Source of the DNA: the human T2T-CHM13v2.0 reference genome, Homo sapiens
Reading direction: 5' to 3'
DNA: 64,000 nt
Assembly: GCA_009914755.4 (NCBI GenBank)
Contig: CP068257.2
Span: 28,896,001 to 28,960,000, forward strand
Shown here: positions 59,990 to 62,470 of the stretch, piece by piece
Position numbering within the stretch: the first letter of the stretch is position 1
How the letters are laid out: each line of letters opens with the position of its first letter
The notes under the pieces: model-generated
What the model was told of the DNA's origin: nothing
Seen by the model: only the letters and a program-made list of their open reading frames with translations
Databases searched by the model: none
Made by a program: the position numbers and the translations under genes

Positions 59990-60329
59990 AGATACTTCAC
60001 TAGTCTCATATTGATCTATAAAGTGTGATCCCTACGTTGATCGTTGGTAGTTCTGCTACATTTAAGAGTAGCAAATGAATTAATATGTACTATTATCTGT
60101 TTATATTTTATTCTGATTGCTTTATCATAATTAATGACTAATCATTAATAATATTTAATAAGTGGATGGAATAAACATGATAAATTATCACAGGGAGTTT
60201 CATAGAAAGTCAGCTCTCATAATTAAGACCTATCACCAGAATGCATTTGGGCCAGAAATGTGGTTTGCAAGATGTTATTCTATCCAAGTCACCACTTTAA
60301 AAAATAGTAACAGGAATTCTGCTAGAAGA
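59990..60329. repeat. Left arm of a ~340-bp inverted repeat pair flanking KRTAP22-2
   Basis: The reverse complement of 59990-60329 matches 62131-62470 at roughly 95% identity. For example, the rc of 60301-60330 is atcttctagcagaattcctgttactatttt, against right-arm cttctagcagaattcctgttactatttttt. The rc of 60001-60060 is tgtagcagaactaccaacgatcaacgtagggatcacactttatagatcaatatgagacta, against right-arm tgtagcagaactaccaatgatcaacctagggatcatactttgtagatcaatgtgagactg. Confidence 0.85.
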
Positions 60330-60774
60330 TGATCAGAGTTAGAAAAACTCAAAAGAGTCACTTAGATCTCTAAATGAGGTGATCTTTGCTGTGGAAACAC
60401 AGGATTATCAGGCATACCAACCAGCTTCATATAGAGGATTCTTATCTATAAGAGTGAGTGAAAAGAGGTCAGAGTACTCAATGCAGGGCTGGAGTTGTAT
60501 CAGTACAGAAGCACATGTTTAAATGTAGACTATTAGGAGAGAGAAAATTGCAGTAGAAAATAGCTTGGTGGGTAATAGTGCTACTGGTTTTGCCAATTAC
60601 CTAGGTCAAACATTGAATTTTTCTAAAATGAAACTTGCATTAGATCAATATAGAGAACAGTATTCTTGAAACTGAACTTGAAATTACTTTTATACAAACA
60701 TTTTTGGAAAAACATCAGTCATGAGTTGCCTGTTTTGTCACATCACTGACTAAAATAGCCACAGGTAGCAATTT

Positions 60775-60813
60775 CACTCTCTCTTTCTATTTCTCCCTTT
60801 CTCTCTCTCTCTC

Positions 60814-60850
<37 letters not shown>
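60775..60850. repeat. Compound (CT)n(CA)n microsatellite
   Basis: actctctctttctatttctccctttctctctctctctctctttcacacacacacacacacacacacacacacaaatacacaaatg. Confidence 0.95.
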
Positions 60851-60852
<2 letters not shown>

Positions 60853-61173
60853 TACACAAATGATAAAGAGAAATGAATATATATGATAAGCAATACATAT
60901 TGTGAAAGTGATTATATTTATTAAAATGCAAATTTATAAGTTTTCCTGCATGGAAATTGTTAATATTATAACAGACATAAACACATAAAACTAACAAAAT
61001 ATCAAAGGATTTTCCCACTAACTGGTAGGAAATTCCACTAATCCAATGCAAATATGACCTGTGGTAATCAATAATTAGAGTTAGTTAAAATTGGAGAGAC
61101 AATAACGAATCCATAAATAACCCTGTTGATGCAATTAGTGCATCACAAGAAAATGGCTCAAAGTGATCAGCAA

Positions 61174-61311
61174 TCAGAATTTCTTTCTAGGAGCCAATAG
61201 GAATCTTCCATAGGAGCACGGAAAGTTGCAGGCATATCCAGAGTTACCATATTCAGAGCCATAGCTGCAACCATAGTCCAGGCTACCATAATAGTTGTGG
61301 TAGTAGCACAT
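61174..61311 (-). CDS. KRTAP22-2: Keratin-associated protein 22-2 (high Gly-Tyr), 45 aa, single exon
   Basis: Reverse-strand ORF translated by hand: MCYYHNYYGSLDYGCSYGSEYGNSGYACNFPCSYGRFLLAPRKKF*. This matches my recollection of human KRTAP22-2. It is below the 60-aa cutoff of the ORF track. The ATG context (tctgacaccATG) is shared with the other KRTAPs in the window. Confidence 0.8.
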   Translation of the reverse strand: MCYYHNYYGSLDYGCSYGSEYGNSGYACNFPCSYGRFLLAPRKKF

Positions 61312-61382
61312 GGTGTCAGAAGATGGAGTTCAATTGAGGCAGATAGTAGTTTCTGAAATTTGACTCTCCTGATTTGTACAAA

Positions 61383-61391
61383 TTATTTTAT
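61383..61391 (-). promoter_or_regulatory. Candidate TATA-like element of KRTAP22-2 (ggataaaataa on the gene strand)
   Basis: It is an A/T-rich TAAAATAA motif lying 72-80 bp upstream of the ATG at 61311. It is weaker than a canonical TATA box. Confidence 0.3.
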
Positions 61392-62130
61392 CCAACCTGA
61401 GTTATATGTGAAGGAAACCACAATCTACATTGGACTCATTCTCACAACTAATTTGCATTAAGATTAAAAAAACCCTCAAGAATCTCTTAGCCATATGTCC
61501 AGGAAAATATTAATATTGCTATGTGTCAGGATGCCAACAAGTAAAATCATGAGCCTTAAGGAGATATTCTCTTAATTTTGTGGCTTTTGCTTACTTAAAA
61601 TCCCAATTTAAACTTGATGATTAGCTTCTCTGTGATCACATTAAGCTTATATTTCCTGCCTCTTGAAACATTTCTTTTTTCTTTTTCAATATCCTCCTCT
61701 ACCTCCATAAATGCAGTCCTTAAACCACAGAGTGGCCAGGAATGGTTAGGGAAGGTTGGCTATGCAGTGAGGAAGCCGATGAAAATGTCTTTATTTACTT
61801 GCAAATATGCCTGTATGTTTTGACTAATTTATTTCTTAATCAATGGGACTAAAAATTTTCTTCCAAGTTCATATGTAGCTTATGTTCTTGGAGTAGTAAA
61901 GTTTTTTCTCTTCCATCATCCTCACTTTGGTTATATTATTAGTTGTGGTGTTCTCTTTGCATCTGAGAAAGCAATTAGAAACAATTACCCACCGTATCTC
62001 AAAATTCATGTTTTCCTCTCCTGACACATAATATTCACATATTTTACCTTCTTTTTATATTTAATGAATTTGCTTATTTTAAAATATATTAATTCCAAAT
62101 TTCCAAAAGTATTGTAAAAATACTTTTCAT

Positions 62131-62470
62131 CTTCTAGCAGAATTCCTGTTACTATTTTTTAAAGTGGTGACTTGGATAGAATAACATCAGCAAACCACAT
62201 TTCTGGCCCAAATGCATTCTGGTGATAGCCTTAATTATGAGAGCTGACTTTCTATGAAGCTCCCTGTGATAATTTGTCACGTTTATTCCATCCACTTATT
62301 AAATATTATTAATGAATTATTAGTCATTTATTATGATAAAGCAATTAGAATAAAATATAAACAAATAATAGTACATATTAATTCATTTGCTACTCTTAAA
62401 TGTAGCAGAACTACCAATGATCAACCTAGGGATCATACTTTGTAGATCAATGTGAGACTGGCAAAGTATC
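62131..62470. repeat. Right arm of the inverted repeat pair flanking KRTAP22-2
   Basis: See the left arm. This arm lies inside the 2-kb divergent intergenic region between KRTAP22-2 and KRTAP6-3. Track ORF 62254..62445 is an artefact inside this arm. Confidence 0.85.

What the first reader, a model, noticed from the sequence alone, without database searches (positions are those of the whole stretch)
59990..62470. About 340-bp inverted repeat (about 95% identity) symmetrically bracketing KRTAP22-2
Arms at 59990-60329 and 62131-62470 are reverse complements of each other, separated by a 1.8-kb spacer. The spacer contains the whole KRTAP22-2 gene (61174-61311) and its promoter. The right arm lies in the divergent 2-kb region shared with KRTAP6-3. 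Such a palindromic configuration can mediate inversion of the enclosed segment by intrachromatid recombination and can form cruciform or hairpin structures. It is not explained by any interspersed-repeat family I recognise, so it looks like a local inverted segmental duplication. This could flip KRTAP22-2 orientation between haplotypes or species.
Basis: seen in the sequence. Interest (0 to 1): 0.6.

Follow-up and report, generated by a model that had tools for sequence, protein, structure and literature searches.

The report
Old small inverted duplication around KRTAP22-2
Two 342-bp copies of one sequence in opposite orientation really do flank the hair-protein gene KRTAP22-2, but they are an old, neutrally evolving duplication shared by all apes and Old World monkeys examined, and the gene between them has the same orientation in every one.

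Summary
The arms lie at 59991-60332 and 62127-62470 and match at 324 of 346 aligned positions (93.6%, E about 1e-149). The spacer is 1,794 bp and holds the KRTAP22-2 coding sequence (61174-61311, minus strand).

The proposed consequences are not supported.
- I recovered the orthologous locus from 21 other catarrhine assemblies: chimpanzee (two), bonobo, a probable gorilla, orangutan, two gibbons and 14 Old World monkeys. All carry both arms at the same boundaries.
- All have the spacer in the same orientation as the window.
- The repeat is therefore older than the ape/Old World monkey split (dated from general knowledge at about 25-30 million years), and no fixed inversion was found.

The arms evolve at the same rate as their flanks but show concerted evolution. 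Human versus Old World monkey comparisons give 5-7 sites where both arms changed together, against 0-1 sites that separate left from right. African apes show no such exchange. The longest perfect match between the window's arms is 62 bp. This, the short arm length and the 1.8-kb spacer make inversion by recombination unlikely and cruciform extrusion in duplex DNA implausible.

The New World monkey Aotus has only the left arm, probably after a secondary 4.6-kb deletion. No transposon hallmark was found, but RepeatMasker or Dfam could not be run. Verdict: ordinary, low interest.

The parts
59991..60332 (.). Left arm of the inverted repeat (342 bp), 841 bp beyond the 3' end of the KRTAP22-2 coding sequence. 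It is present at the orthologous site in all catarrhines examined and in Aotus.
60333..62126 (.). Spacer (1,794 bp). It has the same orientation relative to both flanks in the window and in 21 other catarrhine assemblies. Positions 60514-61774 have an old paralogue (about 62% identity), without arms, in New World monkeys.
61174..61311 (-). KRTAP22-2 coding sequence (45 aa, single exon), product identical to KR222_HUMAN.
62127..62470 (.). Right arm (344 bp), the reverse complement of the left arm. It lies 815 bp upstream of the KRTAP22-2 start codon and 933 bp upstream of the KRTAP6-3 start codon. It is present in all catarrhines and absent from Aotus, together with 4.6 kb of adjoining sequence.
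63404..63715 (+). KRTAP6-3 coding sequence (context). It is head-to-head with KRTAP22-2 and lies inside the 4.6-kb segment missing from Aotus.

Best explanation
The repeat is the neutral relic of a small local inverted duplication of about 342 bp in the 21q22.1 KRTAP cluster.

- **Age.** One arm was copied in reverse 1.8 kb away before the split of apes and Old World monkeys, and probably before the catarrhine/platyrrhine split.
- **History since.** The arms have drifted at the neutral rate. They were partly re-homogenised several times by gene conversion between the arms: in the Old World monkey stem, in the orangutan lineage, probably in the siamang lineage, and at a few sites in the African-ape ancestor.
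- **Present state.** In the human, chimpanzee and gorilla lineages conversion has stopped and the arms are diverging.
- **Function.** I infer that the repeat does nothing for KRTAP22-2 or KRTAP6-3. It is too short and too diverged to drive inversion at a noticeable rate, and too widely spaced to extrude a cruciform in duplex DNA.

Shown here: existence, age, constant orientation, neutral rate and concerted evolution. Inferred: the duplication mechanism, the lack of function and the low present-day recombination potential.
For: **The repeat and its uniqueness**
- It is real and has only two copies.
- It is the most similar repeat pair in the window, 93.6% against 86% or less for Alu-sized pairs.

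**Age and orientation**
- Both arms have the same boundaries in 21 other catarrhine assemblies, and the alignment runs unbroken through flank, arm, spacer, arm and flank.

**Neutral rate**
- Human versus Old World monkey divergence is 4.7-6.2% in the arms and 5.0-7.5% in the flanks and spacer.

**Concerted evolution**
- Left-right divergence within a species is 2.1-4.7%. That is below the human-Old World monkey orthologous divergence of about 6.5%.
- Quartets of human and Old World monkey arms show 5-7 sites where both arms of one lineage share a change, against 0-1 sites separating left from right.
- In a neighbour-joining tree, Old World monkey left and right arms group together with 70% bootstrap support. 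Orangutan left and right arms pair as well, with under 50% support.
- Human-chimpanzee and human-gorilla quartets show 0 concerted against 9-13 orthologous sites, so conversion has stopped in these lineages.

**Low present potential**
- The longest perfect tract is 62 bp in the window and 53-152 bp elsewhere.

**No transposon or RNA signature**
- Pfam six-frame scan of 59500-60520, which covers the left arm; Rfam; and a comparison with the MIR consensus that gave no score above shuffled controls.
- Neither arm has a target-site duplication, terminal inverted repeat or poly(A) tail (sequence).
Against: - RepeatMasker or Dfam could not be run. The arms could still derive from a rare or old interspersed repeat.
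- No human haplotypes were available, so a low-frequency human inversion is not excluded.
- Past gene conversion shows that the arms have recombined, so occasional crossovers (inversions) cannot be ruled out.
- Which arm is the original, and when the copy was made, is unresolved. The only platyrrhine locus that reaches the site (Aotus) has lost the region.
- The inner half of the arms has roughly half the density of variable sites of the outer half (32 against 50 variable columns). This mild gradient is unexplained.
Confidence: 0.68

Rival explanations
1. Recombination between the arms still flips the 1.8-kb KRTAP22-2 cassette. Both orientations would then exist among human haplotypes or in species not sampled here.
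For: - Gene conversion between the arms occurred repeatedly during catarrhine evolution. Conversion and crossover share intermediates.
- The arms are still 94-98% identical.
- Small inversions flanked by repeats are hard to detect with short reads (general knowledge).
Against: - All 22 catarrhine sequences have one orientation.
- No quartet comparison shows a site where one species' left arm matches the other's right arm, as repeated flipping with varied crossover points would produce.
- There has been no conversion in African apes since their common ancestor.
- The longest perfect tract is 62 bp.
- Validated human inversions mediated by inverted repeats have repeats of 1.6-32 kb (PMC3961182).
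Confidence: 0.06
2. The arms are two copies of one interspersed repeat family inserted independently in opposite orientation, later made similar by gene conversion.
For: - The sequence is AT-rich and non-coding.
- Conversion is demonstrated and could mask an originally higher divergence.
- No repeat library could be searched.
Against: - Both copies share both end points to within a few bp in every species. That is unexpected for independent, truncated insertions.
- Neither arm has a target-site duplication, LTR ends, terminal inverted repeat, poly(A) tail or RNA polymerase III boxes.
- No other copy occurs in 64 kb plus about 100 kb of related sequence.
- There are no transposon protein remnants.
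- Comparison with the MIR consensus was not significant.
- The one metagenome hit is a probable assembly chimera carrying right-arm sequence identical to the window.
Confidence: 0.15
3. The duplication is the by-product of an ancient inversion. Staggered breaks or replication template switching inverted the KRTAP22-2 segment and left inverted duplications at the two breakpoints.
For: - The geometry fits: short inverted duplications placed exactly at the ends of a segment. This matches the staggered-break model described for Drosophila inversions (general knowledge).
- The KRTAP cluster is rearrangement-prone, with large lineage-specific insertions and deletions.
Against: - Aotus, which has a single arm, carries KRTAP22-2 in the same orientation relative to the left flank.
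- The older paralogous unit in New World monkeys (a KRTAP22-1-like gene on the minus strand next to a KRTAP6-like gene on the plus strand) is also head-to-head. The present orientation therefore looks ancestral.
- The Aotus state is probably a secondary deletion, so this test is weak.
Confidence: 0.1

Closest known systems
Human polymorphic inversions mediated by inverted repeats, such as HsInv0209 in the KRTAP5 cluster on chr11 (Aguado et al. 2014, PMC3961182)
   Same: Both are inverted low-copy repeats that bracket a segment inside a keratin-associated-protein gene cluster. Identity between the arms is about 94% in both, and gene conversion between arms occurs.
   Different: - HsInv0209 has 7-kb arms containing a 782-bp tract of 99.9% identity, and both orientations segregate in humans.
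- Here the arms are 0.34 kb with a longest perfect tract of 62 bp, and only one orientation is seen in 22 catarrhine sequences.
Palindromes and inverted Alu pairs that form cruciforms or hairpins and cause fragility (Lobachev laboratory; PMC10164571)
   Same: The arm length (about 300 bp) and divergence (about 6%) resemble the Alu inverted repeats used in those assays. In long single-stranded DNA, such repeats fold back even when 30 kb apart and up to 25% diverged.
   Different: The spacer here is 1,794 bp. In duplex DNA, activity falls about 40-fold between 12-bp and 20-bp spacers, so cruciform extrusion is not expected. No breakage or rearrangement centred on this repeat appears in any lineage sampled.
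Concerted evolution of inverted duplicates by intrachromosomal gene conversion, as in the arms of Y- and X-chromosome palindromes (general knowledge)
   Same: The arms group by lineage rather than by side, and within-species arm divergence is lower than between-species orthologous divergence.
   Different: Sex-chromosome palindromes have arms of 9 kb to 1.45 Mb at over 99.9% identity, carry genes in the arms, and convert continuously. Here the arms are 342 bp and gene-free, conversion was sporadic, and it has stopped in African apes.

Membership tests
Inverted segmental duplication acting as a substrate for inversion by non-allelic homologous recombination | Two copies on one chromosome in inverted orientation with at least 90% identity | tested here: met
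   324/346 identities, reverse complement
Inverted segmental duplication acting as a substrate for inversion by non-allelic homologous recombination | Length of at least 1 kb (conventional definition of a segmental duplication) | tested here: not met
   Arms are 342 and 344 bp with sharp ends in all species
Inverted segmental duplication acting as a substrate for inversion by non-allelic homologous recombination | A long uninterrupted identity tract (some hundreds of bp; threshold from general knowledge) | tested here: not met
   Longest perfect tract is 62 bp in the window and 53-152 bp in the other 21 assemblies
Inverted segmental duplication acting as a substrate for inversion by non-allelic homologous recombination | Both orientations of the enclosed segment observed among species | tested here: not met
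   The same orientation is seen in the window and in 21 catarrhine assemblies
Inverted segmental duplication acting as a substrate for inversion by non-allelic homologous recombination | Both orientations of the enclosed segment observed among human haplotypes | not testable with these tools
   No human assemblies were returned by the look-ups
Inverted duplicates under concerted evolution (gene conversion) | Arms share lineage-specific substitutions, and within-species arm divergence is lower than orthologous divergence | tested here: met
   5-7 concerted against 0-1 orthologous sites in human/Old World monkey quartets; left-right divergence 2.1-4.7% against about 6.5%; Old World monkey left and right arms form one clade with 70% bootstrap
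Pair of interspersed-repeat (transposable element) copies | Further copies elsewhere in the genome | tested here: inconclusive
   None in the 64-kb window or in about 100 kb of related loci. One metagenome contig with a 255-bp right-arm fragment looks chimeric. A genome-wide search was not possible.
Pair of interspersed-repeat (transposable element) copies | Structural hallmarks: target-site duplications, LTR TG...CA ends, terminal inverted repeats, poly(A) tail, or transposon-encoded protein remnants | tested here: not met
   Flanks and ends read directly. Pfam six-frame scan of 59500-60520, which covers the left arm, found nothing.
Pair of interspersed-repeat (transposable element) copies | Match to a curated repeat consensus (Dfam or Repbase) | not testable with these tools
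   No repeat library is available. Only a MIR consensus recalled from memory was tried, and its score did not exceed shuffled controls.
Cruciform- or hairpin-forming palindrome | Arms adjacent or separated by a few to tens of bp | tested here: not met
   Spacer is 1,794 bp. For the dependence on spacer length see PMC10164571.
Inversion with inverted duplications at its breakpoints (staggered-break or template-switch origin) | An outgroup with a single arm copy and the enclosed segment in the opposite orientation | tested here: inconclusive
   Aotus has one arm and the same orientation, but its state appears to be a secondary deletion that begins inside a 3'-truncated Alu

The most novel reading that the evidence does not exclude
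The KRTAP22-2 cassette is a recurrently flipping micro-inversion. Recombination between the 342-bp arms occasionally inverts the 1.8-kb segment in human or other primate populations. That would change KRTAP22-2 from head-to-head to tandem orientation with KRTAP6-3 and so alter their shared regulatory region. The past gene conversion would be the visible trace of this activity.
Probability: 0.05. Interest if true: 0.5.

Novelty: new member of a known kind. Interest (0 to 1): 0.17.

Why it matters
It matters little. The repeat is a tidy small example of concerted evolution between inverted duplicates that has decayed in the African-ape lineages, and it gives a dated structural landmark for the evolution of the 21q22.1 KRTAP cluster. 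It would gain interest only if human haplotypes with the inverted orientation exist, because that would show a very short inverted repeat mediating inversion around a hair-structure gene. For annotation, the pair should simply be flagged as a low-copy inverted duplicate, which can confuse short-read mapping and structural-variant calling around KRTAP22-2.

Tried and rejected
- **MIR origin.** A remembered resemblance of the arm centre to the 3' end of MIR did not hold. Local alignment scores were within the range of shuffled sequences.
- **Transposon protein remnants.** A Pfam scan of all six frames of 59500-60520, which covers the left arm, found nothing.
- **Structured RNA.** Rfam gave only a sub-threshold SCARNA7 hit over a microsatellite.
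- **Third genomic copy.** A metagenome scan with an arm 21-mer returned two chance hits and one 1.4-kb low-coverage contig, L013. Its central 255 bp or so are identical to the window's right arm, but both flanks are unrelated and the junctions lie in AT-rich sequence. I judge it an assembly chimera of human contaminant reads.
- **Composite DNA transposon carrying KRTAP22-2.** Rejected: the 2.48-kb unit has no flanking target-site duplication and no transposase, and the spacer has an older paralogue without arms.
- **More platyrrhine outgroups.**
  - The Sapajus locus (L011) starts about 700 bp to the right of the critical junction.
  - The last homologue search, with the Aotus KRTAP22-1-like protein, found no other New World monkey proteins.
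- **Human haplotypes.** P0020, listed in the same 90% cluster as KRTAP22-2, is a bacterial LarA-like protein, so that look-up was wasted.
- **Literature.** No paper links KRTAP22-2 or KRTAP6-3 with an inversion or an inverted repeat.

Full report
**1. The observation**

The repeat finder on 59000-63500 returns four collinear inverted blocks. Gapped BLAST joins them into one alignment. Positions 59991-60332 pair with the reverse complement of 62127-62470 at 324/346 identities (93.6%), with 16 mismatches and 6 gap columns and E = 7e-151. The spacer (60333-62126) is 1,794 bp.

The 45-codon open reading frame at 61174-61311 on the minus strand is identical to KR222_HUMAN / NP_001157906.1. The open reading frame at 63404-63715 on the plus strand has KRTAP6-3 of bonobo and gibbon as its best hits. 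The coding sequence lies within 13 bp of the spacer centre.

Neither arm has another match in the 64-kb window. The pair is the most similar repeat pair in the window, 93.6% against 86% or less for the many Alu-sized pairs.

**2. Source of the window**

- The window is 98.4-98.5% identical to chimpanzee and bonobo loci.
- It is 95% identical to orangutan and 90-91% identical to Old World monkeys.
- A contaminant contig from a metagenome carries about 255 bp identical to the right arm.

I take the window to be human 21q22.1.

**3. Orthologous loci and the orientation test**

Exact-protein look-ups returned the following loci.
- KRTAP22-2 itself: chimpanzee (two assemblies), bonobo and assembly GCA_028885495.2, probably gorilla (L001-L004).
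- Four cercopithecine assemblies (L005-L008).
- Siamang (L009) and Aotus (L010).
- Pongo abelii (L012) and Hylobates moloch (L016).
- Three colobine assemblies (L018-L020), five macaque assemblies (L021-L025) and Semnopithecus (L026).

Species names come from the protein names the sources give.

In every one of these 21 catarrhine assemblies both arms are present at the same boundaries. Left flank, spacer and right flank all align on one strand, so the arrangement matches the window. The repeat therefore predates the ape/Old World monkey split. I date that split at roughly 25-30 million years from general knowledge. No fixed inversion of the KRTAP22-2 segment exists in any lineage sampled.

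**4. The platyrrhine state**

Aotus has the left arm (88% identity to the window) and KRTAP22-2 in the same orientation, but homology to the window stops at 62015. It is followed by an Alu that lacks its last 65 bp or so and its poly(A) tail. Homology then resumes at a point about 2.7 kb beyond the window end in chimpanzee coordinates. Aotus thus lacks 4.6 kb, including the right arm and KRTAP6-3.

A 3'-truncated Alu cannot arise by retrotransposition, and the junction shows a TTGAG microhomology. The simplest reading is one deletion in the Aotus lineage that removed the Alu tail together with the 4.6 kb. If so, the right arm may be older than the platyrrhine/catarrhine split. This is an inference, because the Sapajus locus I obtained starts about 700 bp short of the junction.

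**5. How the arms evolve**

The rate is neutral. Human versus Old World monkey divergence is 4.7-6.2% in the arms and 5.0-7.5% in the flanks and spacer.

The arms are nevertheless more alike within a species than they should be for a duplication older than the ape/Old World monkey split.

| Lineage | Left-right divergence |
|---|---|
| Siamang | 2.1% |
| Orangutan | 2.3% |
| Old World monkeys (the four in the alignment) | 3.2-3.8% |
| Hylobates and the probable gorilla | 3.8% |
| Human, chimpanzee, bonobo | 4.4-4.7% |

These values compare with about 6.5% for orthologous human-Old World monkey sequence.

Site patterns point the same way. In human/Old World monkey quartets, 5-7 sites have both arms of one lineage sharing a state that differs from both arms of the other. 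Only 0-1 sites separate left from right, and none show the crossed pattern. My rough estimate is that parallel substitution alone would give well under one such site.

In a neighbour-joining tree, Old World monkey left and right arms form one clade (70% bootstrap). Orangutan left and right arms pair together, though with under 50% support. African-ape left arms and right arms form separate clades (92% and 97%).

Human-chimpanzee and human-gorilla quartets show 0 concerted against 9-13 orthologous sites.

The arms have therefore exchanged sequence by gene conversion several times, but not since the African-ape ancestor.

**6. What this means for the proposed mechanisms**

*Inversion by recombination between the arms.* Conversion shows that the arms can pair, so inversion cannot be called impossible. 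However:
- No orientation change is seen in 22 sequences.
- No crossed site patterns exist.
- The longest perfect tract is now 62 bp in the window and 53-152 bp elsewhere.
- Validated human inversions mediated by inverted repeats use repeats of 1.6-32 kb (PMC3961182). This includes the KRTAP5 inversion HsInv0209, with 7-kb arms containing a 782-bp tract of 99.9% identity.

*Cruciform or hairpin formation.* In duplex DNA the effect of Alu inverted repeats falls about 40-fold when the spacer grows from 12 to 20 bp (PMC10164571), so a 1.8-kb spacer is effectively inert. The same paper shows that in long single-stranded DNA, repeats up to 30 kb apart and up to 25% diverged can still fold back. Under extensive resection this pair would therefore be permissive, but that is a generic property of thousands of repeat pairs.

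**7. Transposon or local duplication?**

Findings against two independent transposon insertions:
- Neither arm, nor the 2.48-kb unit as a whole, has a target-site duplication.
- There are no LTR ends, terminal inverted repeats or poly(A) tail.
- There is no transposon protein remnant and no Rfam family.
- Similarity to MIR is not significant.
- No further copy exists in the window or in related loci.

Both copies share both end points in all species, which independent insertions of fragments would not do. I therefore favour a local inverted duplication of a 342-bp piece, whatever its deeper ancestry. I could not run RepeatMasker or Dfam and leave 0.15 on the transposon-pair rival.

An origin as the by-product of an inversion with staggered breaks is geometrically attractive. 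It is not favoured for two reasons. Aotus has the same gene orientation. The older paralogous unit in New World monkeys (a KRTAP22-1-like gene beside a KRTAP6-like gene) is also head-to-head.

**8. Verdict**

The feature is real and clean but ordinary. It is an ancient, small, neutrally evolving inverted duplication with a history of gene conversion. It has not inverted the enclosed gene in any sampled catarrhine. It is a new instance of a well-known kind, and interest is low. The only reading that would raise interest is a segregating micro-inversion in humans, which needs haplotype-resolved assemblies to test.

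Noticed in passing
window 61217-61366; L001-L004 about 9850-10000; L012 about 8310: This roughly 149-bp segment holds the 5' UTR and the first 31 codons of KRTAP22-2. It is tandemly duplicated in chimpanzee, bonobo, the probable gorilla and orangutan. It is single-copy in the window, both gibbons, all Old World monkeys and Aotus. In African apes the upstream copy gives a 31-codon open reading frame ahead of the full one, and Pongo pygmaeus RefSeq annotates a 31-aa 'KRTAP22-2'. 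The pattern implies gain in the great-ape ancestor and loss on the human lineage, or incomplete lineage sorting.
   Followed up: partly
L012 8119-8255 (Pongo abelii T2T): The main KRTAP22-2 copy is 137 bp rather than 138 bp and reads through a frameshift after codon 22. The upstream partial copy stops after 6 codons. The gene may be a pseudogene in this orangutan assembly.
   Followed up: partly
L010 (Aotus), reverse-complement coordinates 10780-11402: Aotus lacks 4.6 kb that includes the right arm and KRTAP6-3. The junction lies inside a 3'-truncated Alu without a poly(A) tail and shows TTGAG microhomology. A separate Aotus-specific insertion of about 360 bp lies just to the left.
   Followed up: yes
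L011 (Sapajus) 250-19109; L010 reverse-complement 12300-20135: New World monkeys carry about 18 kb that chimpanzee lacks between KRTAP6-3 and KRTAP6-2. It includes a KRTAP22-1-like gene (Aotus product MSFYRNYYGSLGHGYGGLGCGYGYYGYACYRPCCYGKSCSFSCF) and a KRTAP6-like gene. Two of the Old World monkey loci (L006, L008) show a matching KRTAP22-like segment about 5 kb right of KRTAP6-3, so Old World monkeys may keep part of it. The cluster has large lineage-specific gains and losses.
   Followed up: partly
L019 about 6222-6611 and L026 about 6238-6629 (colobines): An Alu of about 286 bp with a target-site duplication of about 10 bp has inserted into the left arm at arm positions 74-83. It interrupts the repeat in these two assemblies.
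   Followed up: yes
L013 (ERZ781270 NODE_26871, 1,364 bp, coverage 1.66): This metagenome contig has a central stretch of about 255 bp identical to the window's right arm. Both flanks are unrelated, and the left flank resembles antisense L1. It is probably a chimeric assembly of human contaminant reads. A real third copy or a structural variant cannot be excluded.
   Followed up: partly
protein cluster of KRTAP22-2 (P0020, P0024-P0026; locus L017): The 90%-identity cluster that contains KRTAP22-2 has a 418-aa bacterial LarA-like protein as its representative. This is a clustering artefact in the protein collection.
   Followed up: yes
window 60775-60850: A compound (CT)n(CA)n microsatellite lies in the spacer, about 330-400 bp beyond the KRTAP22-2 stop codon. 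It produces a spurious sub-threshold SCARNA7 hit in Rfam.
   Followed up: no
window 63404-63715 and orthologues: The KRTAP6-3 coding sequence aligns to several offset positions in Old World monkey loci, and annotated products range from about 91 to 133 aa. This points to copy-number variation of the internal Gly/Tyr/Cys repeats between species.
   Followed up: no
window 59991-60332 (left arm), human versus chimpanzee: The human left arm differs from the chimpanzee left arm at 7/342 sites (2.0%), against 0.4-1.0% in flanks and spacer and 0.9% in the right arm. Several of these changes appear to be human-specific. This may be chance.
   Followed up: no
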